DNA of 64,000 nt, taken from the NCBI RefSeq assembly GCF_024223415.1, contig NZ_CP100500.1; one strand, written 5' to 3'. Origin of the DNA: Escherichia coli (GTDB lineage Bacteria; Pseudomonadota; Gammaproteobacteria; Enterobacterales; Enterobacteriaceae). The position numbers and the translations under genes were made by a program. Shown here one piece after another: positions 34,552-49,482 of this stretch (its first letter is position 1; every line of letters begins with the position of its first letter). The notes beneath the pieces are model-generated. The model was not told the origin of the DNA, did not search any database, and saw only the letters and a list, made by a program, of their open reading frames with translations.

Positions 34552-34654
34552 CGGCTGACCCCGTCAGAAGGCGGCGTGCCGGGCGTTCCGGTTACGGTTT
34601 TCCGTTCCCCTTACACCCGGCACCCACCGCCTTTTTTTTCTGAAGGAGCGATTT

Positions 34655-35149
34655 ATGAGCATGGTCGCAAGACCGGAAGCCGCCCCTGCACGGGACGATA
34701 TCCCCGACACCGACGACGGCGACGCCACCATCACCGCCGGGGCATTCTGGCCGGAGATTGTGCTGCGGGAGCTGCGCCTTGCAGTACGCCTGCCGGGCCG
34801 CATCACCTCCACACGTCTGGCGCACGTTGCCACGGGAGCCGTGGCTCACGTCACGCGGGAGCTGGAAGAGTGGCAGAAGACGCAGTCTGCCGCAGGGTTC
34901 AGCATCCTCGCAGAAGTGCCTGCCGCCACCATCAACGGTGAGAGCGTCAACGTATGGCATTACCGCAACGCCGTCTACAGCGCCACCCGCGCCCTGATTC
35001 TGGAACGCTGGCGGGATGTGGACACCACTGATAAAGGGAACCGCCGGGCTGACGCACTGGATGAGCAGATGGAAGACTTATGGCGCGATGTGCGCTGGTC
35101 CGTGGCAGATATTCTGGGTCGCCCCCGTCTTTTTGCGGAGCTGGTGTGA
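34655..35149 (+). CDS. P2 gpL-like head completion protein
   Basis: 164 aa, conserved position between M and X. Confidence 0.8.
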   Translation: MSMVARPEAAPARDDIPDTDDGDATITAGAFWPEIVLRELRLAVRLPGRITSTRLAHVATGAVAHVTRELEEWQKTQSAAGFSILAEVPAATINGESVNVWHYRNAVYSATRALILERWRDVDTTDKGNRRADALDEQMEDLWRDVRWSVADILGRPRLFAELV

Positions 35150-35346
35150 TGAAAGTGAGGGCACTCCAGGGGGATACCGTCGATTTACTCTGTTTCCGGC
35201 ACTACGGCACCACGCAGGGGGTGACCGCACAGGTACTTGATGCCAATCCCGGGCTCTGCCGCCAGGTAATTCTGGAAGCGGGACAGGAGGTGGAGATGCC
35301 GGAGCCGGAAAAGAAACAGCAACGCGAAAAGGTAAAGCTATGGTGA
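35149..35346 (+). CDS. P2 gpX-like tail protein
   Basis: 65 aa (MKVRALQGDTVDLLCFRHYGTTQGVTAQVLDANPGL...); start overlaps the L stop. Confidence 0.75.
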   Translation: MKVRALQGDTVDLLCFRHYGTTQGVTAQVLDANPGLCRQVILEAGQEVEMPEPEKKQQREKVKLW

Positions 35347-35630
35347 CGGGATTTTTTCAGCGCGTCAGTGACTGGATCACCTTCTGGGCGTCAGTGACGG
35401 CAACAACCATTGGTGTTATGACCATCAGCGAAAAAATTGCGCTGGCCGGGCTGCTTCTGGGGTCACTTTCCGCCATCCATGCCTGGTGCCACCGCAGGCG
35501 TACGGAGCAGGCAATGAAGCGCCGCAATGACCTTATCGCCCGCATCCTGGCACGTTCAGAAAACCGCGAGCTTCACGACGGTGAGAGACGGGCACTGGAC
35601 AGCGTGAGACAGGACGGAGAAGAGCGGTGA
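35340..35630 (+). CDS. holin (P2 gpY position)
   Basis: 96 aa with hydrophobic segments (FWASVTATTIGVMTI, ALAGLLLGSLSAIHAW) then a charged C-terminus; directly precedes the endolysin. Confidence 0.7.
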   Translation: MVTGFFQRVSDWITFWASVTATTIGVMTISEKIALAGLLLGSLSAIHAWCHRRRTEQAMKRRNDLIARILARSENRELHDGERRALDSVRQDGEER

Positions 35631-36172
35631 AACTGCCGGTAAAACGTTATGCGGTGGCGGCCATTGTGGCGCTGGGCGTCTCCATGGCACCCGGTGAACT
35701 GAGAACCTCACGGGAAGCACAGATAAAAATCGCCACCCGGGAAGAGTGCCGGGCGACACCGTACCGTGATATTGCAGGAGTAATGACCGTGGGATGTGGT
35801 TCAACAGGGGGCGTGGAGAACCGGGTTTACGGAGAAAAGGAGGTGGCCCGCCGCTGGGTGAATGACCTGCGGCACGCGGAAAACTGTATCAACCAGAACT
35901 TCAGCGGTGCCGCCATGCCCCAGTCCGCCTTTGAGGCGATGACCGACGCGGCGTTCAACGTCGGCTGTACCGGCCTGATGTGGTACCGGGACAGGAGCGG
36001 CAACCGGCAGCGCACCACCATCTGGAAGCACGCACAGGCGCACCGCTGGGTGGCGATGTGCGGGAGACTGACCGATTTTGTCAACAGTGGCGGACGCCGC
36101 TCACAGGGGCTGGTTAACCGCCGGGAGGAGTTCAGACAGTGGTGTCTTCGCGACACGGGAGGCAGCACATGA
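35627..36172 (+). CDS. endolysin, lysozyme family with an N-terminal signal-anchor-like segment
   Basis: 181 aa from GTG; hydrophobic N-terminus (AVAAIVALGVSMAPG) followed by a lysozyme-like region (ATPYRDIAGVMTVGCGST). Confidence 0.8.
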   Translation: MKLPVKRYAVAAIVALGVSMAPGELRTSREAQIKIATREECRATPYRDIAGVMTVGCGSTGGVENRVYGEKEVARRWVNDLRHAENCINQNFSGAAMPQSAFEAMTDAAFNVGCTGLMWYRDRSGNRQRTTIWKHAQAHRWVAMCGRLTDFVNSGGRRSQGLVNRREEFRQWCLRDTGGST

Positions 36173-36576
36173 GACCGGTTTACGCCGTGATTGTTGCCCT
36201 CATGGTGACCACCCTGACGGCGGCGGCCATGTGGCAGTCATACCGGCTGGGGCGTGCCGGTGAGGCACGTGACGCCGCAGAGCAGCAGCTGGGCGAATAC
36301 AGCCGGGCGCTGCGTGAGTCCTCCGCCGTTATCAGCGATGCCTCCGCCGTACTGCATGAGGTGATGACGCAGCGACAGAAAAGGGCACAGGAAGGAGAAG
36401 TCAGACGTGAACAGCTTCGCGAAATTGCTGCGACGGATGAGTGCGCCGGCACTCTTCCTGACCACCGTTTTACTGACCGGCTGCGCGAACACACGGAACG
36501 CGCCACTGCCCGCGCCCTCCTTCCGGTTCATTCCGGCGGGACTGACGACGGGAACACGGCCCCCGCCCTTCCCTGA
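36169..36576 (+). CDS. Rz-like inner-membrane spanin (P2 lysB position)
   Basis: 135 aa with an N-terminal transmembrane helix (VYAVIVALMVTTLTAAAMW) then a charged helical region. Confidence 0.7.
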   Translation: MRPVYAVIVALMVTTLTAAAMWQSYRLGRAGEARDAAEQQLGEYSRALRESSAVISDASAVLHEVMTQRQKRAQEGEVRREQLREIAATDECAGTLPDHRFTDRLREHTERATARALLPVHSGGTDDGNTAPALP

Positions 36577-36721
36577 ACACCCCACCTGGGGAAATATCGG
36601 GATATGGAGCGACAGCCTCCTGGATGCACTGGAAACCTGCAACGCAGACAAACGGGCCATTGAGGCGATGGAGCGCCGGAGACTCAACCGACAGAACGGA
36701 GAGGCGCATGCTGAAAAGTAA
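36407..36721 (+). CDS. Rz1-like outer-membrane lipoprotein spanin in the +1 frame overlapping the Rz-like gene
   Basis: GTG start with RBS gaaggag; signal plus lipobox (MNSFAKLLRRMSAPALFLTTVLLTG|C) followed by a Pro-rich sequence (PLPAPSFRFIPAGLTTGTRPPPFPEHP). Confidence 0.65.
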   Translation: MNSFAKLLRRMSAPALFLTTVLLTGCANTRNAPLPAPSFRFIPAGLTTGTRPPPFPEHPTWGNIGIWSDSLLDALETCNADKRAIEAMERRRLNRQNGEAHAEK

Positions 36722-37172
36722 ATCCCTGAGCACACACATGAGTACAGCGTGCCGGTGGTGCAGGGCCAACCCGGAAAAGTTCACCGTGTTCATTGAACGT
36801 GGCGGGATAGAGACCACCGGCGAGACGCCGACGTTCGTGTACAACTACCGGCTGGTGATGTTCGTGATGGACTACACGGGCGATCTGGACAACCTGACGC
36901 TTCCACTGATTGTCTGGCTGGCAGAGAACCAGCCGCAGTTGCTGCTTAATCCTGAGCGCAACAACGATATTCAGTTCACGGCGGCCATTAACGACGACGA
37001 CAGCGCGGACGTGCTGTTTGAGCTGCCGTTACGTGAACGCGTGCGCGTCACCCGCAGGGATGACGGCACCCTCATGACAGAACATCTACCGGAGCCGAAA
37101 TCACGCATCCCGCAGGACGGCGACTGGTCACACATTCTGGAGGATGTGACGTGGAACATTGTCACCGGATAA
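36708..37172 (+). CDS. P2 gpR-like tail completion protein
   Basis: 154 aa from MLKSKSL...; the central region (VMDYTGDLDNLTLPLIVWLAENQPQLL) parallels P2 R. Confidence 0.8.
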   Translation: MLKSKSLSTHMSTACRWCRANPEKFTVFIERGGIETTGETPTFVYNYRLVMFVMDYTGDLDNLTLPLIVWLAENQPQLLLNPERNNDIQFTAAINDDDSADVLFELPLRERVRVTRRDDGTLMTEHLPEPKSRIPQDGDWSHILEDVTWNIVTG

Positions 37173-37187
37173 CACGCGGAGAATGTT

Positions 37188-37844
37188 ATGGGGAAACTGA
37201 GATACCGTAACCTCGTTCCCGCTGAAGGAATGAGTAACATGTTTGTCAATATCCGGCTGGCAACCAGCCCGCAGGCAGTGAAGCGCATTGCCGCGCATGT
37301 GGGTAAGGAGCTGCGGCGCGTGAACCAGAGCCGGATGCGCGCCCAGAAAGCGCCGGACGGTTCGGTGTGGACACGCCGTAAACGCCGTATATCACGCCTT
37401 CAGGAGCGCATCAGCTTTATCTGGCAAAACCAGAACCGCACCCTGAAAAACTGGCATCACGGTTCAGGAAAATACGGCCAGACCATCACCGGCTGGGATG
37501 AAGACCGGAGCGGCATACGTACCTTTTACCGGAGTGATATCCTCCGTTTCCTTGAAATCAGGACACGCCGCATCAACCGTGACACCACAAAAACGGTGCC
37601 GATGTTTGCGAAGCTGCGCACGGCCCGTTATCTGAAAGTGAAGGCGGACGCATCAGGTGTGACGGTGGGCTACAGCGGCGTGGCGGCACGCATTGCCCGC
37701 GTTCACCAGTTCGGGGAGCGCGACCGGGTGGCCGCAGGGATGTATACGGATTATCCGGCCCGTGAACTTCTTGGAATAACACCGGCAGATGAACGACTTA
37801 TTCAGCGTATCATTATGGACAATATCGCGAGGGCTGTGGCATGA
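37188..37844 (+). CDS. P2 gpS-like tail completion / virion morphogenesis protein
   Basis: 218 aa; MRAQKAPDGSVW... and ...IARVHQFGERDRV... blocks match gpS-family motifs, with an internal insertion relative to P2 S. Confidence 0.75.
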   Translation: MGKLRYRNLVPAEGMSNMFVNIRLATSPQAVKRIAAHVGKELRRVNQSRMRAQKAPDGSVWTRRKRRISRLQERISFIWQNQNRTLKNWHHGSGKYGQTITGWDEDRSGIRTFYRSDILRFLEIRTRRINRDTTKTVPMFAKLRTARYLKVKADASGVTVGYSGVAARIARVHQFGERDRVAAGMYTDYPARELLGITPADERLIQRIIMDNIARAVA

Positions 37845-38422
37845 ACGCGGAATTAATGCGCCTTATCAGCAACATCATCAGAACCGGCGTGATTTTCGAC
37901 GTGAACCCGCAGACCTGGGAGGTCCGGGTGCGCAGTGGCGGACTGGAGACAGGCTGGCTTCGCTGGAGCACCGCGCGGGCGGGCGCGTTCAGTGTCTGGG
38001 TGCCGCCAGCCACCGGTGAACAGGTGGCGTTCGTCTGTATCGGTGGTAATCCCGAAACCGCGATAATCATCGGCAGCCTCTGGAGCGATGATATCCCGGC
38101 ACCGGGCAGCACACTGAAGGAAATCATCATGACAGCACCGGACGGTGCGGTATTCCGCTACGATGCAGACGCCGGTGCACTGGAGGTTAAGGGGATTAAA
38201 ACAGCCAGCATTCAGGCCGACACGCGCATCACCCTGGACACGTCGGAGGTGGTGTGTACCCGCAAACTTATCACCGCCACCCTGGAGGTGCAGAACGGCG
38301 GCGAGATGCGCGGCAGCATATCCCACAGCGGCGGCAGCCTGACATCCAACGGTATCACCGTTCATACGCACACCCACGGTGGCGTCAGGACGGGCCCGGG
38401 CACCACGGGAGGCCCGCAATGA
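37841..38422 (+). CDS. P2 gpV-like baseplate spike protein
   Basis: 193 aa; start overlaps the S stop. Confidence 0.85.
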   Translation: MNAELMRLISNIIRTGVIFDVNPQTWEVRVRSGGLETGWLRWSTARAGAFSVWVPPATGEQVAFVCIGGNPETAIIIGSLWSDDIPAPGSTLKEIIMTAPDGAVFRYDADAGALEVKGIKTASIQADTRITLDTSEVVCTRKLITATLEVQNGGEMRGSISHSGGSLTSNGITVHTHTHGGVRTGPGTTGGPQ

Positions 38423-38769
38423 CCGCTGTTTACAGGGGGATGAACCCGCAGGGAACCGGCACGCTGAGCGACAGCGAACACCTGAAAAACAGCGTGCGGG
38501 ATATCCTGACCACACCGCCAGGCAGCCGGGTGATGCGCCGCGAATACGGCAGCCTGTTACCGGACCTCATCGACGAGCCCATGAACGACACCACGCGTTT
38601 ACAGTGCATGAGCGCCACGGTGACTGCGCTGGCGCGCCATGAACCCCGTATAGCACTGCAGAACGTCGATGTGAACTGGCGGGCTGGCGGACGCGCCGTG
38701 GTGACGTTATCCGGCATCATCACCGAAACCATGCAGAACATCACATTCAGTATCACCCTGAGGGAGTAA
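38419..38769 (+). CDS. P2 gpW-like baseplate wedge protein
   Basis: 116 aa (MTAVYRGMNPQGTGTLSDSEHLKNSVRDILTTPPGSRVMRREYGS...); start overlaps the V stop. Confidence 0.85.
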   Translation: MTAVYRGMNPQGTGTLSDSEHLKNSVRDILTTPPGSRVMRREYGSLLPDLIDEPMNDTTRLQCMSATVTALARHEPRIALQNVDVNWRAGGRAVVTLSGIITETMQNITFSITLRE

Positions 38770-38772
38770 ATC

Positions 38773-39669
38773 ATGCCTTCCGTTGACCTGTCACAGTTAC
38801 CGGAACCGGCCATCATCGCGCAGCCGGATTTTGAGTCCATCCTGGCAGACATTAAAACCATGATGGTGAGCTCCTTCCCGGAAGAATACCGCGCCGCCGT
38901 CACCCGTGCCCTTACTCTGGAATCCGAGCCATTGAACATCATTTCCCAGGCCATGGCCTTTCGTGAAATGCTGCTTCGCCAGCGCATCAATGAAGCCGCC
39001 CGCGCCTGCATGCTCAGCCACAGCCGGGGCAGTGACCTGGACAATCTGGCCGCCAACAACAACACCCGCCGCCTGGTCATTCATCCGGCCACTGATACCA
39101 CGGAAGCAGTGATGGAAAGCGACACATCGCTGCGTCTGCGTGCCCAGTCAGCCTGGGACGGCCTGAGTGTGGCCGGACCGTCCGGCGCGTATGAGTATTT
39201 TGCCCGGAGCGCAAGCGGTCTTGTCCGTGATGCGCGCGCCATCAGCCCGTCACCGGCCACAGTCACCGTCTCCATCCTGTCAGCAGACGGTGACGGCACC
39301 GCCGGTGAGGCGTTACTGAACACGGTGCGCACCGCCCTGAATGCCGAGAACGTGCGCCCGGTTGCCGACCGCCTGACTGTGCAGAGTGCTACCATCGTGA
39401 ACTGGGTAATGGAAGCGAAGCTGTATTTTTATCCAGGGCCGGAGTCTGAACCCATGCTTGCGGCCGCTGACGCCGCTTTCCGTGCATGGCTGGCAGACCA
39501 GGGCCGTATCGGTCAGGACGTGGCCCTGTCAGCCATCACTGCAGCGCTGCATGTTCACGGTGTCCAGCGCGTTGAGGTCATAAAACCCACGCAGAACATC
39601 ACCATCAGTGACACTCAGGCAGCCAGATGTACCACATTCAGCATCAGCGAAGGAGGACGCAATGAGTGA
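38773..39669 (+). CDS. P2 gpJ-like baseplate protein
   Basis: 298 aa, conserved position after W. Confidence 0.85.
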   Translation: MPSVDLSQLPEPAIIAQPDFESILADIKTMMVSSFPEEYRAAVTRALTLESEPLNIISQAMAFREMLLRQRINEAARACMLSHSRGSDLDNLAANNNTRRLVIHPATDTTEAVMESDTSLRLRAQSAWDGLSVAGPSGAYEYFARSASGLVRDARAISPSPATVTVSILSADGDGTAGEALLNTVRTALNAENVRPVADRLTVQSATIVNWVMEAKLYFYPGPESEPMLAAADAAFRAWLADQGRIGQDVALSAITAALHVHGVQRVEVIKPTQNITISDTQAARCTTFSISEGGRNE

Positions 39670-40225
39670 CAGGAAAAAAACAGACAGCGCACAGCACAGT
39701 ACATCACTGCTTCCACCGTCCGCAGGGCCATTCATGCGCGCCACAGAGGCGACAGGAGTACGCATCAGTACCATACCGGTGGACGCCGACACCCTGTGGT
39801 CGCCGGACCGCTGCCCTGCTCACCTCCTGCCCTACCTTGCATGGGCATGTTCCGTTGACAGCTGGGACCGCAACTGGCCGGAAGAGACCAGGCGACAGGT
39901 GATTCGGGACGCATGGATGATACATCGCCACAAAGGGACCATCAGTGCACTCCGCCGCATCGTTGAACCACTGGGCTACCTCATCCGTGTATCAGAATGG
40001 TGGGAGTTTGACGGCTCGCCCGGGACCTTCACCATTGAGATTGGCACACTTGAAACCGGAGTAAGTGAAGAGCTGCATGAAGAAATGGAGCGTCTGATTG
40101 CCGATGCGCGCCCCGTCAGCCGCCACCTCGTGGGGCTTAGTATCATCCAGGAAATACACGGTGCCATTTACGCCGCTGCCGCAGGTTACGACGGCGACAT
40201 CATCACCATTTACCCGGAAGACTGA
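39662..40225 (+). CDS. P2 gpI-like baseplate protein
   Basis: 187 aa from an ATG following ggagg; overlaps the J end. Confidence 0.8.
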   Translation: MSDRKKTDSAQHSTSLLPPSAGPFMRATEATGVRISTIPVDADTLWSPDRCPAHLLPYLAWACSVDSWDRNWPEETRRQVIRDAWMIHRHKGTISALRRIVEPLGYLIRVSEWWEFDGSPGTFTIEIGTLETGVSEELHEEMERLIADARPVSRHLVGLSIIQEIHGAIYAAAAGYDGDIITIYPED

Positions 40226-40228
40226 ACC

Positions 40229-42463
40229 ATGAGCACGAGAAAATTCAGAACCCTTATCACCGACATCGGGCTGGCAAAGCTGGCCGCAACAACGGCGCCT
40301 GGCGGTAGACCTGTACGCCTTACGCACATGGCTGTAGGGGACGGCAATGGAGAGCTTCGTCAGCCGCAGAAAAACCAGACATCGCTTTACAATGAGGTTT
40401 GGCGCCAGTCTGTCAACCGCGTCTTCACCGACCCGGAGAACCCGAACCGCCTCATCGCCGAACTGGTCATTCCTCCTGAAACCGGCGGATTCTGGGTGCG
40501 TGAAATTGGTGTGTTTGATGATACAGGTACAATGATTGCAGTAGGAAATACCGCTGAAAGTTACAAGCCCACCAGAGAGGAAGGTTCAGGGCGGGCGCAG
40601 ATATTCCGTGCAGTAATCACCGTCACCTCCGACGCCGTGGTGGAACTGGTCATGGACACAACAACAATTCTGCCGACCACGGACTACATTGATGAGAAAA
40701 TAGCGGAACACGCACGTTCCCGTAACCACCCTGACGCGACACTGACAGAAAAAGGATTCACCCAACTGAGCAGCGCCACAAACAGCACCTCTGAAACACT
40801 GGCCGCCACACCGAAGGCCGTCAAGGCTGCATATGACCTTGCAGCCGGTAAAGCACCCGCCAGCCACACCCACCCGTGGAATCAGATAACAGGTGTGCCA
40901 TCAGCCTCGCTGACGGCAAAAGGCACCGTACAGCTGAGCAGTGCCACAAACAGTGAGTCAGAGACTGAGGCCGCCACCCCCAAAGCGGTTAAAGCCTTAC
41001 ACGATATGGTGACGAGCAAGTATACAGGACAGGATGCAACCACCGGACGCAAAGGCATCGTACAGCTGAGCAGCGCCACAAACAGCAATTCCGAAACACT
41101 GGCGGCCACACCGAAGGCAGTAAGTGATGCACTGAGCATGGCGTTCGTGAAGCCAACAACATCCCTGGGGGAAACAGACCTGAACACTCTGGGGAGTAAG
41201 GAAGACGCGGGAGATTATTACCAGCAGAGTGACTCAGGTGCGAGAACAGACAGAAACTATCCTGTAGAGAAGGCAGGAGAGTTACGCATCCGTGTTGGTG
41301 CATGGGGATTCTGCCAGCATGAATACACGAGCTGGGATCCGCCACGAAAATTTATCAGGACAGTTACCGGAAACTTTAACGGTAACGGCCCATGGTCAGA
41401 GTGGGTGGAGGTGACAAACACAGATGCAACAACTGGACGCAAAGGCATCGTACAGCTGAGCAGCGATACAAACAGCAATTCCGAAACGCTGGCGGCCACA
41501 CCAAGAGCCGTCAAGGCTGCATATGACCTTGCAGCCGGTAAAGCACCCGCCAGCCACACCCACCCGTGGAATCAGATAACAGGTGTGCCATCAGCCTCGC
41601 TGACGGCAAAAGGCACCGTACAGCTGAGCAGTGCCACAAACAGTGAGTCAGAGACTGAGGCCGCCACCCCCAAAGCGGTTAAAGCCTTACACGATATGGT
41701 GACGAGCAAGTATACAGGACAGGATGCAACCACCGGACGCAAAGGCATCGTACAGCTAAGCAGCGCCACAAACAGCAATTCCGAAACGCTGGCGGCCACA
41801 CCAAAAGCTGTTAAAGCTGCGTATGACCTTGCCAACAGCAAAGCCTCGGCAGCCCACACTCATCGCTGGGCTCAGATCACAGACGCCCCTGTTTTTTCGT
41901 CTGTTGCCCGCGTCATCATGGGTAAACAAAGCATAAAAGATATTCTTGATTACCTTGGTTTAGGAGAAGGCTCGACGCTGCCAGTTGGCGTACCCGTTCC
42001 GTGGCCTTCGTCAAGACCACCTGAGGGGTGGTTACAGTGCAACGGTGCCGCATTCACGCGTACAAAATACCCAAAACTGGCGGTGGCCTACCCTGACCTC
42101 AGGCTACCAGATTTGCGCGGGGAATTTATTCGTGGATGGGATGACCTGCGAATGATTGACAGGGGACGCTTATTGTTATCCACACAGGAAGCAACATATA
42201 TTTGTACCGCCATACAGGCGTACCACGGCGTAGCGGGAGGTGCAGATATTCAGGCAGGGATTTCATTTGCATCACATGATAACGACATCATAAACATAAC
42301 CCCTGATCAACCCAGAACCGGTAACGGCATCCTGTACGGCACAAAACCAGTTGACAGATGGGCAATAGCCAGAGCCGGTAAGCTGGTGAGTAATGAAAAA
42401 GACAGATGGATAGCGATCAGACCGCGCAATATCGCTTTTAATTATATTGTGAGGGCAGTTTAA
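40229..42463 (+). CDS. tail fiber protein (P2 gpH-like) with internal repeat modules
   Basis: 744 aa; N-terminus MSTRKFRTLITDIGLAKLAATTAPGGRPVRLTHMAVGDGNGE... is like P2 H. Six copies of the tail-fibre repeat motif (QLSSATNS..ETLAATPKAVKA) and a perfect 251-bp internal duplication. Confidence 0.88.
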   Translation: MSTRKFRTLITDIGLAKLAATTAPGGRPVRLTHMAVGDGNGELRQPQKNQTSLYNEVWRQSVNRVFTDPENPNRLIAELVIPPETGGFWVREIGVFDDTGTMIAVGNTAESYKPTREEGSGRAQIFRAVITVTSDAVVELVMDTTTILPTTDYIDEKIAEHARSRNHPDATLTEKGFTQLSSATNSTSETLAATPKAVKAAYDLAAGKAPASHTHPWNQITGVPSASLTAKGTVQLSSATNSESETEAATPKAVKALHDMVTSKYTGQDATTGRKGIVQLSSATNSNSETLAATPKAVSDALSMAFVKPTTSLGETDLNTLGSKEDAGDYYQQSDSGARTDRNYPVEKAGELRIRVGAWGFCQHEYTSWDPPRKFIRTVTGNFNGNGPWSEWVEVTNTDATTGRKGIVQLSSDTNSNSETLAATPRAVKAAYDLAAGKAPASHTHPWNQITGVPSASLTAKGTVQLSSATNSESETEAATPKAVKALHDMVTSKYTGQDATTGRKGIVQLSSATNSNSETLAATPKAVKAAYDLANSKASAAHTHRWAQITDAPVFSSVARVIMGKQSIKDILDYLGLGEGSTLPVGVPVPWPSSRPPEGWLQCNGAAFTRTKYPKLAVAYPDLRLPDLRGEFIRGWDDLRMIDRGRLLLSTQEATYICTAIQAYHGVAGGADIQAGISFASHDNDIINITPDQPRTGNGILYGTKPVDRWAIARAGKLVSNEKDRWIAIRPRNIAFNYIVRAV

Positions 42464-43074
42464 TGAGTAACACTGCAGTTCTGGATGAAAACGGTATCGC
42501 CACTTTCGCAGGCGATATCACTGTATATCACTATGATGAGGAAACCCGGGAATACACCTCATCCTCTGTGGAGTATCTGGCCCTGGGGGTGGGTACCCCG
42601 GCACATTCATGCGCCGATGCCCCGCCAGAGGCAATGCCGGGTTACGTGATTTGCCGGACGTCCACGCTGGACGGGTGGGAGTATGTCCCCGATCATCGTG
42701 GAGAGACGGTATACAGCACAGAGAACGGTAATCCGGTCCAGATTACCCAACCAGGTGACTACCCGGAAGGGACAACGACAAAACAGCCTGCCACACCATG
42801 GGATACCTGGAACGGTGAGGCGTGGGTAACCGATACAGAACGGCAGCAAGCCGAAGAGCTGGAGGTTGCCAGACAGCAACGCAAGGAACGGGTGGATCAG
42901 GCGATGAAGTCCATCGACCTCATCAACCTTAAGTTGCGGGCAGGTCGCAGTCTGACACCAGAAGAAACGGCAAAACTGAATGCCGTGCTGGATTATATCG
43001 ACGAGCTGAACGCACTGGATATCAGCACGGAGCCTGAAATAAGCTGGCCGGAAACACCACCAGAAATGGAATGA
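42463..43074 (+). CDS. tail fiber assembly chaperone (P2 gpG-like)
   Basis: 203 aa; start overlaps the H stop; MSNTAVLDENGIATFAGDITVYHYDEETREY... is typical of tail fibre assembly proteins. Confidence 0.85.
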   Translation: MSNTAVLDENGIATFAGDITVYHYDEETREYTSSSVEYLALGVGTPAHSCADAPPEAMPGYVICRTSTLDGWEYVPDHRGETVYSTENGNPVQITQPGDYPEGTTTKQPATPWDTWNGEAWVTDTERQQAEELEVARQQRKERVDQAMKSIDLINLKLRAGRSLTPEETAKLNAVLDYIDELNALDISTEPEISWPETPPEME

Positions 43075-43144: not shown

Positions 43145-43633
43145 TCACATCAGATCATTTACGCCGCTTACTGTGGTATTCCAGACCGAACTTAACTTCC
43201 CTTTCATTCCCGAAAGCATATCAGACACCGGTGACGAGGCCATACTCTCCCGCAAATCCTCATCACAGCGTTCCAGACTGACAGTGAACTCAATTTTTTT
43301 GGCCTTACCGTGGCGGTCAAGTTCGCTTCGCGTTGTGCGGACAGCCGTTATCACATACATGCCGTATATCTGCCCCACACCGTCAATCAGCGGCCATGGG
43401 CGACCAGTGTAAGCCTGCGTCGTTAAAAGGCTGAGGGAAACCTCACCGCCGGTAATTTCGGGATAAAGCACACCGGACAACGTGATCTGGTCGTCACCCG
43501 CCCCGATATACTGCCAGCTGGCCGAACGATTGATGCGTTCATTTTTAACGTGGCGCCAGGTTTTATTATGTTGCAGTTGTTGATGAGGCAGCGTACGCAA
43601 CTCAAAAACAAACATGCCGTAAATCATCATCAT
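43145..43633 (-). CDS. P2 gpU-like tail protein
   Basis: 162 aa (MMMIYGMFVFELRTLPHQQLQHNKTWRH...); last gene of the leftward sheath-tube-tape-measure block. Confidence 0.8.
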   Translation of the reverse strand: MMMIYGMFVFELRTLPHQQLQHNKTWRHVKNERINRSASWQYIGAGDDQITLSGVLYPEITGGEVSLSLLTTQAYTGRPWPLIDGVGQIYGMYVITAVRTTRSELDRHGKAKKIEFTVSLERCDEDLRESMASSPVSDMLSGMKGKLSSVWNTTVSGVNDLM

Positions 43634-43644
43634 GCGAGGTACTC

Positions 43645-46600
43645 CTAATCTCTGTCACGGAAACTACCGACTGTCTGGCGGATACGGCGTTCCATTTCCG
43701 CACGGACGGCATCACCCACCATTTTTGCCAGTTCGCGCGGGTTTTGCGTGTGAACATCATGCAGGTGAATATGCAGTTCGCCAGTTAATCCCCATGGTGC
43801 CGCCTCACTCTGGCGCGGTCGGGGCGATGCGGGGGATATGGGCTGGCGCACAGCCTCAACCACCGGACGGGATGTTGCCGCCATCACTGGTGTCATTAGC
43901 GGGGAGAACGTCGGCATGACATCGTGAGTCATAACCGGTTTGATCACCGGCGGAACCACTGGCGTAATATTACCGGACAGTACCGGACGGACGACCGGAG
44001 GAATAACCGGCACATTATTCACGGACACCACCGGCTTCACGACCGGCGACACGTTCGCCGTGGTGGATATCAGCGGCGAAACACTGACAGGCGGTGGCGC
44101 TGGCAGCGGTGGCAACGAAGGCACACTGACCGACGGCACCTGCGGCAGTCTGACAGGTGGCTCACTGACACTACCCGGTAACAGGGAAGCTGCGCGGTTA
44201 AAGCGTTCCTCCTTCCACTCACCACGAACGGCCAGCGCTTCCGGCAGGTTTTTAAAGATAATATCGCCGGGACCAGCGCGTTTTTTCGCCTGTTTCGCCT
44301 CATCCAGCAGACCACCGGTGTTATCGACGATTTTGTTCAGGCGGCGCATAGTGCCGGTATTCTCCCCCGTCAGGGGTGGTTGCCCCCCTTTGGGTTTTTC
44401 GCCGTATTTTTTATCCTCGTCCTTTTTCGGCGGATTAATGACGTTAACATCCGCCAGAAGCATGGCAGCTTTCTCGTTCAGCAACTCCTTCTGTTTTAGT
44501 TCTTCCGCTTTTTTCCGGGCGCGCTCAACCGCTGACGGAATCAGCCCGAGTTTTTCCAGCACCCGGGTTAATGAGTCAATCAGCAGCGTAACCGGACCGG
44601 TCACCAGATTGCTGATAAACTCCCCGACCTTCTGCCCGAACGTCCGCCCGGCTTCCGTGCACTTGTCCAGCTCATCCTTTGTTGTGCTTACCGGCGCGAA
44701 CAAATCCACGAACCACTGCCACACACGCCCGATTGTCTGCCCGACATACTCAAACAATGGTCCCAGTGGTGCCACAGCCTCGCGCAGTGGCGTAAGCCCC
44801 TGCCACAGGCCGGACAAGAACCCGCCCACGACAGCCTTCAGCTGGTCCCAGTGCCGCCAGATAAGCACTGCCGCACCGACCAGTGTCGCCACCACAAGGC
44901 CCACCGGACTTAACAGAAAACCCAGCGCCCCGCCAAGTGCGCCCACCGCACCACTCACCATCCCCCACAGTGCGGGCAGACCTGACAGTCTGAGCGCCAG
45001 TATTCCGATACCGCGCCCCAGTGAAATCAGTGCGCCGCCAGGTGAAGTGAACGCAGCCAGCAGACCACCACGCAGCGCGCCAAGTCCCGCCTGCACACCA
45101 CGAAGCCGCCCCGCAACTACGCCCAGCAGTGCAGCAAACCGTCCGGCACCGGAGGTGATACCGACAAACAGCACGCGCCAGCCACCGATACCGCCCAGCG
45201 GACCACCGAGTACGCCGCGCAGCTGCGTCAGTAACGGCAGCGCACGACCGAGGCCGGATGTGCCGGTCAGCAGGGCAAACCCAAGACGCAGTTTTGCCAG
45301 CGGCCCCATCAACACACCAGTGGCAAGTGACAGCGCCCCCATGGCCGCAACCGCAGCCAGCAGTACACCACCGGCAATCAGCAGTTGTTTTGTCAGTTCA
45401 GGGTGCGCCTGAGCCAGCGCGGTGACTTTCGCAATAACCCGGGTGAACGACTGCGTGACAGAACGCAGCGGCCCGTCAACGAGGTCAGCGATACGGATAC
45501 GCAGTCCTTCCCATGCGCTGTTCAGTGATTTCAGGTCACCGTCCAGGTTATCAACCATAACACGGGCAGTCTGATTAAGTTCCCCGGTGGCCAGTTCAAT
45601 CTCCTGCGTAAGACGGGGAAGATTATTTTCCCCCGCCGCAGTGACAAGATTCATCAGGGAAACATAGGACTCCTGCCCGGCAATAGCCCTGAAAAAGGAG
45701 ACCTGCGCGGCATTACCGTATTTTCGGGTGGCCTGGTACAGCTCATTCAGGATATTTTCCATCCGGCGCATGTTCCCGTAAGCATCCTGCGTCTCCACGC
45801 CAAGCTCTTTCAGTGCCATTGCAGCGGCCTTCGGCGGATCAACCAGACGTGACAGACTGGCACGCAGCGCCGTACCTGCATCACTTCCACGGATCCCCAC
45901 ACTGCCAAGGACACCCGTCATGGCTGCCGCCTGTTCAAGGGACAGGCCAAGTGAAGCTGCAACCGGCCCCGTGTACTTCATGGTTTCACCCAGCGAACGG
46001 AGATCCGTATTGGTTCGTGTGAAGGTGGCGGCCAGCGTGTCACCCACGCGATCCATCTGGTCAGCGGACAGACCAAACTGTGTGAGGATATTCGAACTGA
46101 TATCGGCAGTCTGTCCCAGGTCCATCCCTGCAGCCATTGCCAGATCAAGCACGCCGGGTAGCGCCGCCTGTATGGCCTGTGGTGTGAAGCTGGCCATGGC
46201 AAGGAACGCCTGACCGCTGGCAGCATCACCGGCGGTAAACTGCGTTTCAGAGCCCAGCTTAATGGCCTGTTCGCGCAGCGCCTTAAACTGCGGACTGTTT
46301 TTGTCAATACGGGTCAGCGCCTGGACGCGCGACATCTCCTTACCAAAACTGACCGCCGGTTGCAGGAAACGTCCGGCCGCATAGCCGCCTGCCGCCGCCG
46401 TACCAACCGCCGTAAGTCCGACCGTTTTAAGTTTTCCCGCCGTCTCCTGAGCACGGGAATATTGCTGGCGTGCCTGCGTGACACGTGCCAGCGCCTGCCG
46501 TTCGCGTTCCAGCTGGTCGTTGTATTGCTGTGTTCGCCGTATGGCCTGTTGAATGGTGTTGTCACTGCCGGAAAGCGCAATACCGTGGCGCCGCAGCTCA

Positions 46601-46956
46601 CCACCCAGTTCGCGCATTCGCTGAACTTCACGCGCACGGACCTCATTGAGACGCTCAAGTTTGAGGCTCAAATCGTTCATCAGCTTTTTCTGTTTGTCAG
46701 ACAGCACGGTTCCGGCGCGCTGAATTTGCTGAAGTGCGCTTAACTGGCGTTGCGCCCTGACAATGCCGTTTCCGGCCTTGTTTGCAGCCTCGCGGGCGCG
46801 ATCAAATGAACGGGCGTGGCGTTCCAGGTTTTTGATCGCACCCTGCGTTCTCTGTATGGAGTCGCCAAGCTGGCCCATCATGCGACGGGCGTTTTCGGTG
46901 GGACGGGTCAGCCTGTCAACAGCGCTGAAGGCGACCCGTATATCAAGCGTTTTCAT
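43645..46956 (-). CDS. tail tape measure protein (P2 gpT-like)
   Basis: ORF 43645-46992; ATG at 46956 (MKTLDIRVAF...) overlaps the predicted E' stop, giving ~1103 aa. Long helical N-terminus and Gly/Ala-rich membrane-like core typical of tape measure proteins. Confidence 0.85.
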   Translation of the reverse strand: MKTLDIRVAFSAVDRLTRPTENARRMMGQLGDSIQRTQGAIKNLERHARSFDRAREAANKAGNGIVRAQRQLSALQQIQRAGTVLSDKQKKLMNDLSLKLERLNEVRAREVQRMRELGGELRRHGIALSGSDNTIQQAIRRTQQYNDQLERERQALARVTQARQQYSRAQETAGKLKTVGLTAVGTAAAGGYAAGRFLQPAVSFGKEMSRVQALTRIDKNSPQFKALREQAIKLGSETQFTAGDAASGQAFLAMASFTPQAIQAALPGVLDLAMAAGMDLGQTADISSNILTQFGLSADQMDRVGDTLAATFTRTNTDLRSLGETMKYTGPVAASLGLSLEQAAAMTGVLGSVGIRGSDAGTALRASLSRLVDPPKAAAMALKELGVETQDAYGNMRRMENILNELYQATRKYGNAAQVSFFRAIAGQESYVSLMNLVTAAGENNLPRLTQEIELATGELNQTARVMVDNLDGDLKSLNSAWEGLRIRIADLVDGPLRSVTQSFTRVIAKVTALAQAHPELTKQLLIAGGVLLAAVAAMGALSLATGVLMGPLAKLRLGFALLTGTSGLGRALPLLTQLRGVLGGPLGGIGGWRVLFVGITSGAGRFAALLGVVAGRLRGVQAGLGALRGGLLAAFTSPGGALISLGRGIGILALRLSGLPALWGMVSGAVGALGGALGFLLSPVGLVVATLVGAAVLIWRHWDQLKAVVGGFLSGLWQGLTPLREAVAPLGPLFEYVGQTIGRVWQWFVDLFAPVSTTKDELDKCTEAGRTFGQKVGEFISNLVTGPVTLLIDSLTRVLEKLGLIPSAVERARKKAEELKQKELLNEKAAMLLADVNVINPPKKDEDKKYGEKPKGGQPPLTGENTGTMRRLNKIVDNTGGLLDEAKQAKKRAGPGDIIFKNLPEALAVRGEWKEERFNRAASLLPGSVSEPPVRLPQVPSVSVPSLPPLPAPPPVSVSPLISTTANVSPVVKPVVSVNNVPVIPPVVRPVLSGNITPVVPPVIKPVMTHDVMPTFSPLMTPVMAATSRPVVEAVRQPISPASPRPRQSEAAPWGLTGELHIHLHDVHTQNPRELAKMVGDAVRAEMERRIRQTVGSFRDRD

Positions 46957-47469
46957 GCTCTGCGTTCCCGCTGCGAAGGGCCGCCCGCTCACGCCAGGCG
47001 ACCACCTCGCCGGGATCCATCAGGAAGATTTCAGCGGGAGACCAGTTGAAAATAACGGCGATATCCGCCACAAAGTCTTCAATGTGCTCAAAGGGCACGA
47101 CGGTTATCAGCCTGCCGTCGCCGCCCCGCTCTTCCCGCCAGAGTCCTGACCGGCCAAAAAATTAACCGCCACCCCGCACAGCTGAATAAAATCAGCGGAC
47201 CCCATGCGCTTAAGCAGAACCTCGTCCAGTCGCGGCGAAGTGACGCGCGGGAGTAACTCAAACATCGCGTCCGTTTTCATGTTCAGCACGTCAAGCAGTG
47301 ACAGCCCGCGCAGTGAACCGGCCTGCTGTACAGCAGGCGTGATTTCCACATACGTGATTTTTTTGTTACCGAGCACAAGGGGCGTTTTCAGCGTCACGCC
47401 GCGCTCACTGGTCACGTCCGCCGCATCAGCACCGTCAGTAACAGGGGCAACAACCGGATTTTCTTTCAT
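46952..47469 (-). CDS. tail assembly chaperone E (47107-47469) and its -1 frameshift extension E+E' (to 46952)
   Basis: 120-aa E ORF ends at 47107. A TTTTTTG slippery heptamer (minus strand, 47155-47161) lies near its 3' end; after a -1 shift the frame runs to a TGA at 46952-46954 that overlaps the T start codon. Confidence 0.7.
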
Positions 47470-47519
47470 GCATAAAACCTCAAATCAGGGGGCGACGCCG
47501 CGCGCCGCCGTGGGAAACA

Positions 47520-48038
47520 TTAACCACCAAGACCAATCGCCGAGCGCACGCGGTCCGGGAAGACGTTTTTGCCGTCCTTGCGTTCGATGTGGTTCAGTAA
47601 ATCAATCTCCAGCACCGGACGGTCGTTAATGCTGAGTTTGTAGTAGGTACTCCTGACCGCATAGGTGTGAGACGTGACCTCACCCTGTTTTGCCTCCCCC
47701 GTATCAATTTCCGTCACGCGGCCGCGAAGCTCAATTTCATACAGGTCGCTCTGCTCTTCATCGTTGTAGTACTCACCGACAAAGCGCAGCAGCGTACCGT
47801 CGATCGTGCCGCCGTACTTAAGGAACAGTTCGCGGGTCGGCCCGCCCATGGTGAAACTCGCATCCAGCGCGCCGTCATCCAGACCAAGGTCGATATTCAC
47901 CGCGCCGGCCATACCACCACCGCGATAGGCTTCCGTTTTACGGGTCAGTTTGGGGGGCGTGAAGCCGGTCACCCTGCCAATCTGGTTCACCCCGTCAGTA
48001 AACAGCGTGAACACCCTGAGATTTTTTGGTACGGCCAT
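47520..48038 (-). CDS. P2 gpFII-like tail tube protein
   Basis: 172 aa (MAVPKNLRVFTLFTDGVNQIGRVTGFTPPKLTRKTEAYRGGGM...). Confidence 0.88.
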   Translation of the reverse strand: MAVPKNLRVFTLFTDGVNQIGRVTGFTPPKLTRKTEAYRGGGMAGAVNIDLGLDDGALDASFTMGGPTRELFLKYGGTIDGTLLRFVGEYYNDEEQSDLYEIELRGRVTEIDTGEAKQGEVTSHTYAVRSTYYKLSINDRPVLEIDLLNHIERKDGKNVFPDRVRSAIGLGG

Positions 48039-49321
48039 TAAGCACCTCCAAGCGTCGCAAATGCAGGACCAAAGAATTCATCAGTAAACGTCTGGTAAAG
48101 TTCCATATCCTCAAGCGGCGGAACGGGCGTGTACTTGTAGCGGATACGCACGCGTCCCTGACGAAGTTCCGTGGTGCTGTTATCCACCACGTCATACCAG
48201 CACTCCGCACCAATGAGACGTCCTGACGTAACCAGCGCATCCAGTTTTGCGCGAATTGCGCTTAACACGTCTTTCACATTAGCAGGGGTCAGCGGGGCAT
48301 CAATCGTTTCAAACTGCGCTTCCGCAATGGAATCAGCCAGCACCTGAGCGGTTCGCGTGTACACCTCAAAGATATACGCCTTCGTTTCCGGCGTACGGTT
48401 GCCCCAGAAGCGGAAACCGTTACGGCAAATGATGGTAGTGATTTCCTTGTTGTTGAGATTGTTGGCATCGCTGTCTTCGGACTGAAGGGACCAGAACACC
48501 GGGCTGGAAATACCCAGCACATTTGTTACCGGCACGTTGGACAGCGATTTATGCCAGCCCTGTTCGTGGTCAATACGTGCACGTAAACCGCAGGCGTACG
48601 CCGCAGCCGGGAAGACCTCATTAGCGCCGGATTTCGGGTTATAGGCGATGAAGTCAGGCCAGAGCAGCATAAGTTCGCGCTCGTTAAATCTGGCGCGGTA
48701 GCTGATTGCATCAGCGGGCTTCTTGCAGTTGTGACAGCCCGCGTAGACAAATGCGCGAAGTTTTTCTGCAATTACACACAGGGATTTTGTGACAGCTTCA
48801 GTATCCAGTCCGGGAGCTGCGATGATGCGCGGACGGTAACCGATGGCATCATCCTGTTCAGCTATCAGAAGTGCATACATACCGGTATAATTACCGTCGC
48901 CATCCGTGCCACCAATGACATACTGGTCCTGCGTTTTGTGTGGGTATACAGGATGTGCATCTTCAGACTCATCAATACCAAAAAATGCCCTGTCTTCAGG
49001 ATCCAGATGACCGAATGATGTAACTCCTGTATCCGGGGCGCCCTGAGAACTGGTATCAGGAACGCGCACCACAATCACCTTCGTGCTCACCTGGTCGGCG
49101 ACAGCCTTAAGCGATTTGTAAAGCGTCCCCTTTGTGCCGGCCTTACCCAGCACATCACTGACGCGGGTCAGCAGTGTGGGTTTGTTCAGCGGGAACAGAG
49201 TTTCATCCGCGTCATCTGCCGTAGCCACAATACCAATAACACTGGAATCCACATCATTAATGGCGGTGGCAAGGCCGGTACTTTCCCTTACGCGCGCACC
49301 ATGAAAGCGTGTTTCACTCAT
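48038..49321 (-). CDS. P2 gpFI-like tail sheath protein
   Basis: ORF 48038-49468; start placed at MSETRFHGARV... (49321). Blocks ...FPLNKPTLLT...GTKGTLYKSL..., ...LRARIDHEQGWHKSLSNV..., ...RNGFRFWGNRT..., ...YTRTAQV..., ...YTPVPPLE... parallel P2 FI. Confidence 0.88.
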   Translation of the reverse strand: MSETRFHGARVRESTGLATAINDVDSSVIGIVATADDADETLFPLNKPTLLTRVSDVLGKAGTKGTLYKSLKAVADQVSTKVIVVRVPDTSSQGAPDTGVTSFGHLDPEDRAFFGIDESEDAHPVYPHKTQDQYVIGGTDGDGNYTGMYALLIAEQDDAIGYRPRIIAAPGLDTEAVTKSLCVIAEKLRAFVYAGCHNCKKPADAISYRARFNERELMLLWPDFIAYNPKSGANEVFPAAAYACGLRARIDHEQGWHKSLSNVPVTNVLGISSPVFWSLQSEDSDANNLNNKEITTIICRNGFRFWGNRTPETKAYIFEVYTRTAQVLADSIAEAQFETIDAPLTPANVKDVLSAIRAKLDALVTSGRLIGAECWYDVVDNSTTELRQGRVRIRYKYTPVPPLEDMELYQTFTDEFFGPAFATLGGA

Positions 49322-49397
49322 ATGTTTCACCCTTGTCTGGCTGGTTGATTTTGCGTAATCATTACCCACACACGCGGTAATCTCACCCCTTTGATGT

Positions 49398-49415
49398 TGT
49401 CTCCTGACAGCGACA
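49398..49415. promoter_or_regulatory. candidate Ogr-dependent late promoter dyad (TGT-N12-ACA) in the divergent FI / D intergenic region
   Basis: TGTctcctgacagcgACA, nested in a longer palindrome (tgttgtc...gacaaca); lies ~75-80 bp from both the FI and D start codons. Confidence 0.5.
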
Positions 49416-49482
49416 ACAAAACAGCCATTCAACGCCGCTGCGGTGCATGAAACCATTACAGAACGCACCAGGAGAGAACACC

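What the first reader, a model, noticed from the sequence alone, without database searches (positions are those of the whole stretch)
40817..41757. Perfect 251-bp in-frame direct duplication inside the tail fibre gene, flanking an inserted domain
40817-41067 and 41507-41757 appear identical by eye, offset by 690 bp (230 codons). The segment between them encodes ...ETDLNTLGSKEDAGDYYQQSDSGARTDRNYPVEKAGELRIRVGAWGFCQHEYTSWDPPRKFIRTVTGNFNGNGPWSEWVEVTN, which looks like a globular insertion. The gene therefore appears mosaic and is prone to recombinational deletion or expansion, a possible route to host-range switching. A long perfect repeat is also a misassembly risk.
Basis: seen in the sequence. 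Interest (0 to 1): 0.45.

Follow-up and report, generated by a model that had tools for sequence, protein, structure and literature searches.

The report
Repeat-built phage tail fibre shaft
The 251-bp perfect repeat is real, but it is part of the ordinary repeat-built shaft of a P2-type prophage tail fibre carrying a known "pyocin knob" domain; only the perfection of the repeat is peculiar to this sequence, and it comes from gene conversion or from the assembler.

Summary
Window 40817-41067 equals 41507-41757 (251/251), in frame, 690 bp apart, inside the P2-type tail fibre gene H (40229-42463, 744 aa).

The repeat is not a one-off duplication around a foreign insert. The shaft is an array of Phage_fiber_2 units: A (56 aa, with an HxH motif), B (44 aa) and K (130 aa, unit head plus knob). 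The window reads N-A-B-K-A-B-T. The domain between the copies is a pyocin-knob domain, shown by a profile hit to R2 pyocin Knob2 and by a confident AF2 model whose best fold matches are 6CL6, 6CT8 and 6CL5.

The two-copy architecture is the dominant allele of this E. coli prophage family, so it is not a misassembly. It occurs in 22 complete-genome records and on hundreds of contigs. Relatives carry at least 10 other unit orders, which shows in-register unit shuffling.

In the relatives checked, the copies differ at 2-4 sites in the 251-bp block. The window differs from them precisely by paralogue-directed changes. That is the signature of gene conversion, or of assembler homogenisation; reads are needed to decide.

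The predicted 690-bp deletion product (514 aa) does exist in public data. It is found only in short-read assemblies, which also contain orphan knob-loop contigs, so it is probably a collapse artefact.

This is an ordinary feature of low novelty.

The parts
40229..42463 (+). Tail fibre gene (P2 gpH type), 744 aa; architecture N-A-B-K-A-B-T
   Evidence: ORF. Pfam PF12571 aa 4-151, six PF03406 repeats, PF07484 aa 587-634. Identical to WP_254539300.1/UTJ24874.1.
40817..41067 (+). Copy 1 of the perfect 251-bp repeat: last 34 codons of unit A1, all of B1, first 17 nt of K
   Evidence: 251/251 identity to copy 2; unit map.
41507..41757 (+). Copy 2 of the perfect 251-bp repeat: last 34 codons of A2, all of B2, first 17 nt of T
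40751..40918 (+). Unit A1 (56 aa Phage_fiber_2 unit with HxH motif SHTHPW)
40919..41050 (+). Unit B1 (44 aa Phage_fiber_2 unit, no HxH)
   Evidence: 100% identical to B2.
41051..41440 (+). Unit K (130 aa): Phage_fiber_2 head, then knob, then DATTGR linker
41141..41425 (+). Pyocin-knob domain (aa 305-399)
   Evidence: Profile hit to R2/R1 pyocin fibre Knob2, E=2.4e-6. AF2 pLDDT 93.5. Foldseek top hits 6cl6, 6ct8, 6cl5 with TMq 0.68-0.74. NCBI names a fragment 'pyocin knob domain-containing protein'. 252 clusters of homologues.
41441..41608 (+). Unit A2
   Evidence: 90% DNA identity to A1, with the differences concentrated in the first 66 nt.
41609..41740 (+). Unit B2
41741..42460 (+). Terminal unit T (240 aa): A-like unit with HxH, linker, T4 gp37-like collar and distal tip
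   Evidence: Collar PF07484. PDB 2xgf gp37 match at aa 581-641 and at the C-terminal NIAFNYIVR.
40891..40972 (+). Two paralogue-diagnostic sites (40891, 40972) where the window carries the copy-2 state; minimum conversion tract 82 bp
41699..41699 (+). Diagnostic site in copy 2 where the window and CP070393.1 carry the copy-1 state (G, Val491 instead of Leu)
42463..43074 (+). Tail fibre assembly chaperone (Caudo_TAP)

Best explanation
The 251-bp repeat is the most conserved stretch of a higher-order repeat in the shaft of a P2-family prophage tail fibre.

Anatomy (shown). The shaft is a chain of Phage_fiber_2 units that share a roughly 24-aa head, KGxVQLSSATNSxSETLAATPKAV. There are three unit types: A (56 aa, with an HxH motif), B (44 aa), and K (130 aa, in which a pyocin-knob domain follows the head). 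The window reads N-A-B-K-A-B-T, so the block [A tail - B - next head] occurs twice, 690 bp apart.

Mechanism (inferred). Because all units share heads and are whole numbers of codons, homologous recombination in register adds, removes or swaps whole units without breaking the frame. The shown evidence for this is that the same prophage family carries at least 10 other unit orders. The two-copy arrangement itself is old and widespread.

The perfect identity. In the relatives examined the copies differ at 2-4 sites in the block. In this sequence those sites have been made identical by paralogue-directed changes. That is the signature of intragenic gene conversion: a copy2-to-copy1 tract of at least 82 bp, added to an earlier copy1-to-copy2 change shared with CP070393.1. 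The same pattern could also be produced by an assembler or polisher, and this cannot be excluded without reads.

Function (inferred from R-pyocin fibres). Unit number sets fibre length and the position of a possible secondary LPS-binding knob. The distal gp37-like tip that most likely binds the primary receptor is unaffected.
For: Exact repeat and 300/690-bp periodicities. Domain content and synteny. Unit map and unit-to-unit identities: heads are 69-92% identical, B1 equals B2, and the K tail resembles the B tail. The same 2235-bp gene at 99.7-99.8% in 22 complete E. coli records, and 73 distinct 744-aa protein variants, one of them on 444 contigs. Other architectures include A-B-K-A-A-T, A-A-B-K-A-T, A-A-B-K-A-B-T, A-B-K-A-B-A-T, A-A-B-K-A-A-T, A-A-B-A-K-A-T, A-B-K-A-A-A-T, A-B-K-A-B-A-A-T and the knob-less A-B-A-A-T; a 901-aa knob-less array with a different tip brings the total to at least 10. 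In five complete genomes the copies read TGG versus ACC at the three diagnostic sites, while the window reads ACG in both. The closest relative, CP070393.1, reads TGG/ACG and differs from the window at only 4 of 3235 bp, two of which are the homogenising sites; the chance probability is about 1e-6. Protein variants at residues 261/491 are V/L in 48, L/L in 14, V/V in 11 and never L/V. Knob identity. Buth et al. 2018 (PMC6116203) report that repeats allow fibre length to be adjusted and that Knob2 is among the most diverse, putatively LPS-binding parts of the fibre.
Against: No reads are available, so a real conversion cannot be separated from assembler or polisher homogenisation. Other perfect-repeat alleles (TGG/TGG, AGG/AGG) were seen only in short-read or metagenome assemblies. 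The seven other large-contig or complete sequences examined all keep 2-4 differences. The window pattern needs two conversion events in opposite directions. No functional data exist for fibre length or for the knob in this phage. The 690-bp deletion product is not seen in any complete genome.
Confidence: 0.75

Rival explanations
1. The two-copy architecture is real, but the perfect identity is an assembly or polishing artefact. The true sequence of this strain would have 2-3 mismatches, like its relatives, and a shared graph node or ambiguous short-read polishing wrote the same consensus into both copies.
For: Both copies carry the same mosaic (A, C, G) of copy-1 and copy-2 alleles, which one consensus step explains, whereas biology needs two opposite conversions. 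Other zero-difference alleles with different mosaics come from short-read or metagenome assemblies (L027-L033). Draft assemblies demonstrably fail at this locus: orphan contigs equal window 41120-41466 and 41052-41498, and they fall in clusters of 22-23 members.
Against: The window comes from a 5.56-Mb contig. The longest exact run shared by the copies in the common allele is only 80 bp, so large-k graphs and 150-bp read mapping should resolve them. The sister genome CP070393.1, also complete, carries one of the three homogenising changes, which gives a plausible stepwise biological path. TGG/TGG recurs in five different samples and assemblers, which is not expected from random bubble-popping.
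Confidence: 0.4
2. The whole duplication is a misassembly: only one copy of the 251-bp segment exists and the gene is really 1545 bp.
For: Exact 514-aa single-copy products occur on 12 public contigs.
Against: The same 2235-bp gene is present in 22 complete-genome records, about 15 strains from several countries and laboratories, and on hundreds of contigs. All 514-aa forms are in short-read assemblies (MEGAHIT k141, Logan, drafts). Their junction patterns differ between samples of one study, and three (L018-L020) are non-monotonic relative to the common allele. Orphan knob-loop contigs show where the missing segment goes.
Confidence: 0.02
3. The repeat is a very recent tandem duplication in this strain, and the copies are identical simply because they have had no time to diverge.
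For: 251/251 identity.
Against: The same architecture is widespread with diverged copies: 3 differences in the core and 16 in the 5' 66 bp. The window's own 5' part of the repeat is as diverged as in the relatives. The nearest relative has the same architecture with 2 differences.
Confidence: 0.03
4. The repeat is the substrate of a programmed diversification system, such as a DGR template/variable repeat pair, an invertase shufflon, or a dedicated phase-variation switch.
For: Tail fibre genes are classic targets of DGRs and of Gin/Cin inversion (established knowledge).
Against: The copies are direct repeats in the shaft of the same gene, not in the tip. The paralogue differences are T/A, G/C and G/C, not adenine-specific. 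No meaningful inverted repeat is present; the only one is 27 nt at 70%. No invertase or reverse transcriptase turned up among the ORFs scanned around the gene or among the large prophage ORFs; not every ORF was scanned.
Confidence: 0.02

Closest known systems
Bacteriophage P2 gpH-type tail fibres with Phage_fiber_2 (PF03406) repeats; modular tail-fibre evolution as described by Haggard-Ljungquist 1992 and Sandmeier 1994 (own knowledge)
   Same: N-terminal PF12571 domain, gene order V-W-J-I-H-tfa, repeated roughly 40-aa fibre motif, a Caudo_TAP chaperone downstream, and mosaicism by exchange of sequence motifs.
   Different: The head module is P88-like at only about 78% identity and no isolated phage is close. 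The tail block U-T-FII-FI is inverted relative to P2. The shaft carries a knob unit and a 690-bp higher-order repeat.
R-type pyocin fibre Knob domains (PA0620; PDB 6CL5, 6CL6, 6CT8; Buth et al. 2018 PMC6116203; Salazar et al. 2019 PMC6363177)
   Same: The fold and sequence profile match Knob2. The knob sits inside a rod built from short repeats with an HxH metal site.
   Different: There is a single knob rather than a tandem pair, at 22% identity. The distal tip is a T4 gp37-like collar domain rather than a lectin-like foot. No binding data exist.
T4 gp37 long tail fibre tip (PDB 2XGF)
   Same: Collar motif at aa 581-641 and the C-terminal NIAFNYIVR strand.
   Different: Only about 90 aa lie between the collar halves, so there is no long needle. 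The relation to the repeat is only positional.
Identical large in-frame tandem repeats in bacterial surface proteins, for example the group B Streptococcus alpha C protein with 246-bp repeats, where repeat deletion changes the phenotype (own knowledge)
   Same: Long, in-frame, near-identical repeats kept homogeneous by concerted evolution; copy-number change by homologous recombination.
   Different: Here the copies are interrupted by a knob unit, there are only two of them, and no phenotype change has been shown.

Membership tests
P2 gpH-type tail fibre | N-terminal baseplate-attachment domain (PF12571) | tested here: met
   E=6e-50, aa 4-151.
P2 gpH-type tail fibre | Position after baseplate genes V-W-J-I and before a tail fibre assembly chaperone | tested here: met
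   Baseplate_J, Tail_P2_I and Caudo_TAP flank the gene. RefSeq annotation of homologous loci agrees.
P2 gpH-type tail fibre | Homotrimeric fibre on the virion | not testable with these tools
   Only monomer prediction is available.
Phage_fiber_2 repeat array | Multiple PF03406 repeats | tested here: met
   Six stretches, E=9e-105. The Mu S fibre (5yvq) aligns to one unit.
Pyocin knob domain | Sequence-profile similarity to a solved knob | tested here: met
   hmmsearch of profile A1 against PDB: 6cl6_A E=2.4e-6, chain residues 140-209, which is Knob2.
Pyocin knob domain | Antiparallel five- or six-stranded beta-sheet knob fold | tested here: met
   AF2 pLDDT 93.5 with 5 strands. Foldseek top hits 6cl6, 6ct8, 6cl5 with TMq 0.68-0.74 and prob 1.00, although the E-values are only 0.02-0.03.
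Pyocin knob domain | Saccharide or LPS binding | not testable with these tools
   Inferred only from PMC6116203.
Recombination-driven repeat-number polymorphism | Natural alleles that differ by whole units in register | tested here: met
   At least 10 other architectures, 626-901 aa.
Recombination-driven repeat-number polymorphism | The specific 690-bp deletion or duplication between the 251-bp copies seen in a reliable assembly | tested here: inconclusive
   Exact 514-aa products occur on 12 contigs, all from short-read assemblies. None of the complete-genome hits has this form. The two 974-aa duplication products looked up were not found.
Intragenic gene conversion (concerted evolution) | Clustered changes that each convert one copy to the state of its paralogue | tested here: met
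   3 of the 5 differences from the common allele, and 2 of the 4 from CP070393.1, are of this kind; chance P about 7e-9 and 1e-6.
Intragenic gene conversion (concerted evolution) | Pattern verified in reads, not produced by the assembler | not testable with these tools
   No read data.
Diversity-generating retroelement | Reverse transcriptase plus adenine-specific TR/VR differences | tested here: not met
   The differences are T/A, G/C and G/C. No RT among the scanned ORFs.
Gin/Cin-type invertible tail fibre segment | Inverted repeats flanking alternative C-termini, plus an invertase | tested here: not met
   Only one weak 27-nt inverted repeat. The downstream genes are the tfa chaperone and then gpU.

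The most novel reading that the evidence does not exclude
The long near-perfect repeat could make the knob-containing 230-codon cassette (K-A-B) excise and re-expand at appreciable frequency during prophage or phage replication. A lysate would then be a mixture of long knob-bearing (744 aa) and short knob-less (514 aa) fibres. This would be a RecA- or replication-slippage-driven bet-hedging switch in adsorption. Under this reading some of the 514-aa contigs in public data are real variants, and gene conversion actively keeps the repeat recombinogenic.
Probability: 0.1. Interest if true: 0.5.

Novelty: new member of a known kind. Interest (0 to 1): 0.2.

Why it matters
The biological weight is small. 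The locus is a clean natural example of how repeat-built fibre shafts change length and knob content by in-register unit exchange, and of concerted evolution inside a phage gene.

The practical weight is larger. Public databases hold truncated 514-aa versions of this fibre and orphan knob fragments that are most likely short-read artefacts. Perfect repeat identity in assemblies cannot be trusted without spanning reads. Several database entries also name this fibre a 'short-chain fatty acid transporter'. Anyone predicting host range from receptor-binding protein sequences, or engineering P2-type fibres or tailocins, should treat this locus with care.

Tried and rejected
(1) Megablast of the gene against isolated phages found only partial hits of about 82% to repeat units in two records, so no close phage exists. 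The 24.6-kb late region gave at best about 78% over head genes.

(2) A word-indexed homologue search with the knob peptide returned only fragments. These fragments turned out to be informative as orphan contigs.

(3) NCBIfam had no model for the knob or for the whole protein. Pfam has no knob model that scores here.

(4) An exact look-up of the window protein's encoding contig failed, so the source record and its sequencing method could not be inspected.

(5) Two 974-aa duplication products were looked up and not found.

(6) I designed a look-up for knob-only deletions (614 aa; K-head by A2-head recombination) but did not run it. It would not discriminate real events from artefacts, and it costs shared compute.

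(7) DGR, invertase and fresh-duplication readings were rejected (see rivals).

(8) Literature searches for a prior description of this exact locus or of PF03406 repeat shuffling found nothing specific.

(9) The apparent association between perfect repeats and short-read assemblies is biased. L027-L033 were chosen through a protein that is already homogenised at residue 491, so I did not use it as a statistical test.
Full report
**1. The observation**

Window 40817-41067 and 41507-41757 are identical at all 251 positions, 690 bp apart. The repeat finder independently reports a 300-nt pair with 690-bp spacing. It also reports a four-member family with spacings of 300, 390 and 300 bp.

Similarity continues on both sides of the perfect block.
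- On the 3' side it runs to 41112 with two mismatches (41068, 41098).
- On the 5' side it runs back to 40751, but with 16 mismatches in 66 bp.
- The 5' border of the perfect block is therefore sharp.

Both copies lie in frame in one ORF, 40229-42463 (+), 744 aa.

**2. What the gene is**

Pfam finds three things in the protein:
- the P2-type fibre N-terminus (PF12571, aa 4-151);
- six Phage_fiber_2 repeats (PF03406, E=9e-105);
- a Collar domain (PF07484, aa 587-634).

Upstream lie Baseplate_J and Tail_P2_I. Downstream lies a Caudo_TAP chaperone (42463-43074), and then gpU on the other strand.

The wider region is a P2-family prophage. It contains an integrase (17290-18294), gpA, portal, terminase, a P2 capsid, tape measure, tube, sheath and gpD.

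The distal part of the fibre aligns to the T4 gp37 collar, including the C-terminal NIAFNYIVR. One repeat unit aligns to the Mu S fibre.

No isolated phage is close. The repeats reach about 82% identity in two phage records, and the head genes reach about 78% to P88-like phages.

**3. Anatomy of the repeat**

Cutting the protein at each KGxxQLSS head gives these units:

| Unit | Window coordinates | Length | Feature |
|---|---|---|---|
| A1 | 40751-40918 | 56 aa | HxH motif SHTHPW |
| B1 | 40919-41050 | 44 aa | no HxH |
| K | 41051-41440 | 130 aa | head, knob, ...TDATTGR |
| A2 | 41441-41608 | 56 aa | HxH motif |
| B2 | 41609-41740 | 44 aa | identical to B1 |
| T | 41741-42460 | 240 aa | A-like unit with HxH, then collar and tip |

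A+B is 300 bp and A+B+K is 690 bp, which explains both periodicities. The perfect block is [last 34 codons of A] + [B] + [first 17 nt of the next head].

K is built like its neighbours. It has the same 24-aa head, and a tail (GATGCAACAACTGGACGC) nearly identical to the B tail. So K reads as one more unit of the array that carries a knob, not as a foreign insertion with a target duplication.

**4. The domain between the copies**

- A full HMMER scan of 1.84 billion cluster representatives found 252 clusters with this domain at E<=1e-3.
- In a local re-scan of the best 149 hits, 42 carry 2-4 copies of the domain.
- A 45-sequence profile hits the R2 and R1 pyocin fibre structures 6CL6, 6CT8 and 6CL5 in the Knob2 region, E=2.4e-6.
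- The AF2 model is confident, with pLDDT 93.5 and pTM 0.84.
- Its best Foldseek matches in the PDB are the same three entries: TMq 0.68-0.74, prob 1.00.
- NCBI names a fragment of this region 'pyocin knob domain-containing protein'.

Buth et al. 2018 (PMC6116203) describe knobs interspersed in a rod of short repeats with a buried iron at an HxH site. They argue that repeats let fibre length be tuned. They propose that Knob2 and the C-terminal lectin domain are the two LPS-binding regions (HxH also).

**5. Is the duplication real?**

Yes. The same 2235-bp gene at 99.7-99.8% identity is present in 22 complete-genome records of E. coli. Eight of those records are one 5,067,659-bp genome, which leaves about 15 strains, mostly from poultry and humans in several countries.

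In the protein collection the 744-aa architecture has 73 distinct sequence variants. The commonest variant is on 444 contigs. The window protein is exactly WP_254539300.1/UTJ24874.1, on a 5,559,392-bp contig.

**6. Unit shuffling in the population**

The same prophage family, with identical flanking genes, carries many other unit orders:

| Length | Architecture |
|---|---|
| 756 aa | A-B-K-A-A-T; A-A-B-K-A-T |
| 800 aa | A-A-B-K-A-B-T; A-B-K-A-B-A-T |
| 812 aa | A-A-B-K-A-A-T; A-A-B-A-K-A-T; A-B-K-A-A-A-T |
| 856 aa | A-B-K-A-B-A-A-T |
| 626 aa | A-B-A-A-T (no knob; complete genome SCU-115) |
| 901 aa | A/B array with no knob and a different tip |

All of these differ from each other by whole units. 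This is direct comparative support for in-register recombination among units. It does not show how often such events occur, or in which direction.

**7. Why the repeat is perfect here**

In the five complete genomes examined, copy 1 reads T, G, G at 40891, 40972 and 41009. Copy 2 reads A, C, C at the matching sites.

The window reads A, C, G in both copies. So three of its five differences from those genomes each turn one copy into the state of the other. The probability of this from random substitutions is about 7e-9.

The nearest sequence found is CP070393.1, a 5.59-Mb chromosome.
- It reads TGG/ACG, so it already carries the copy-2 change.
- It differs from the window at 4 of 3235 bp.
- Two of those four are 40891 and 40972.

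Other assemblies show other paralogue-directed patterns: TGC..G/ACC, TCC/ACC, AGG/AGG and TGG/TGG. At the one non-synonymous site, residues 261/491, protein variants are V/L in 48, L/L in 14, V/V in 11 and L/V in none.

This is the signature of recurrent intragenic gene conversion. It is equally the pattern expected if assemblers or polishers write one consensus into both copies. Several points bear on which is true:
- The zero-difference alleles other than the window all come from short-read or metagenome assemblies.
- That sample was selected through an already homogenised protein, so it is biased.
- Against an artefact, the longest exact run shared by the copies in the common allele is only 80 bp.
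- Also against an artefact, the window and its half-converted sister both come from chromosome-size contigs.

I cannot decide this without reads. I put a real conversion at roughly even odds, slightly above.

**8. The predicted deletion**

Recombination between the two copies would remove K-A-B and give N-A-B-T, 514 aa.

I looked up the exact predicted products on three allelic backgrounds. Three of the five deletion forms exist in public data, on 12 contigs. Neither of the two duplication forms (974 aa) looked up was found.

Every carrier of a 514-aa form is a short-read assembly: MEGAHIT k141 metagenome contigs, a Logan contig, metagenome scaffolds and fragmented drafts.

Their junction patterns differ between samples of the same study. 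Relative to the common allele, three are non-monotonic mosaics of copy-1 and copy-2 alleles: L018, L019 and L020. L021 carries the window-like A, C, G pattern. This fits independent graph collapses better than a circulating deletion clone.

Draft assemblies also contain orphan contigs that are exactly the loop between the copies. L022 equals window 41120-41466 and L023 equals 41052-41498. They fall in clusters of 22 and 23 members.

None of the complete-genome hits has the 514-aa form. However, only 27 complete records carry this fibre family at more than 90% identity, so a rare real variant is not excluded.

**9. Mechanism and function**

Shown:
- the anatomy of the units;
- the knob fold;
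- the population polymorphism in unit order;
- the paralogue-directed changes.

Inferred:
- Homologous recombination is the agent. This could be RecA-dependent, or replication-associated between close direct repeats; 251 bp of identity is far above the minimal substrate length known for E. coli (established knowledge).
- The A units bind a metal through HxH, as in pyocin and T4 fibres.
- Unit number sets fibre length, and the knob may offer a secondary saccharide contact.

The claim of host-range switching is not supported by anything measured here. The gp37-like tip is identical across the shuffled architectures. Only the 901-aa variant has a different tip.

**10. Verdict**

The finding is real but ordinary. 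It is a P2-type fibre shaft built of known repeats with a known knob domain, evolving in the way such fibres are known to evolve.

Two things are worth keeping. One is the gene-conversion (or homogenisation) signature. The other is the demonstration that short-read assemblies mis-handle this locus and have seeded databases with truncated fibres and knob fragments.

Noticed in passing
window 40229-42463 (database names of identical or near-identical proteins P0036, P0044, P0050, P0061, P0076, P0078, P0087, P0090, P0098): Several NCBI and UniRef entries for this tail fibre protein are named 'short-chain fatty acid transporter', an evident annotation error that has propagated through many records.
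   Followed up: no
window 43145-49468 (- strand) versus 37188-43074 (+ strand): The tail block gpU, tape measure, tube FII and sheath FI lies on the opposite strand to the baseplate and fibre genes and directly abuts the fibre chaperone. This order differs from canonical P2, where FI-FII-E-T-U-D follow H-G on the same strand (own knowledge of P2).
   Followed up: partly
window 17290-50574: A complete-looking P2-family prophage (integrase to gpD) sits next to a molybdopterin oxidoreductase gene (14549-16993, - strand). No isolated phage in the GenBank phage collection is close: the best match is about 78% over head genes, to P88-like phages.
   Followed up: partly
window 5867-8149 (+) and 5888-8140 (-): Two almost full-length ORFs of 760 and 750 aa overlap each other on opposite strands. 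The antisense ORF is unusually long for a chance ORF.
   Followed up: no
window 34001-40000 and 44001-48000 versus 52001-54000: GC content is about 60% in the prophage late genes, about 50% in the chromosomal flanks, and dips to 43% just beyond the prophage end.
   Followed up: no
L003 6819-6891 (NZ_AP045770.1): In strain 23CRST011 the tape measure gene of the homologous prophage is annotated as an incomplete pseudogene, so that copy of the prophage is probably defective although its fibre gene (812 aa) is intact.
   Followed up: no
L025 (JBIPKN010000001.1), copy 1 of the repeat: Copy 1 carries the copy-2 state at 41009 and 41098 but keeps the copy-1 state at 41068 between them. This is a discontinuous paralogue-directed pattern that a single conversion tract does not explain.
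   Followed up: no
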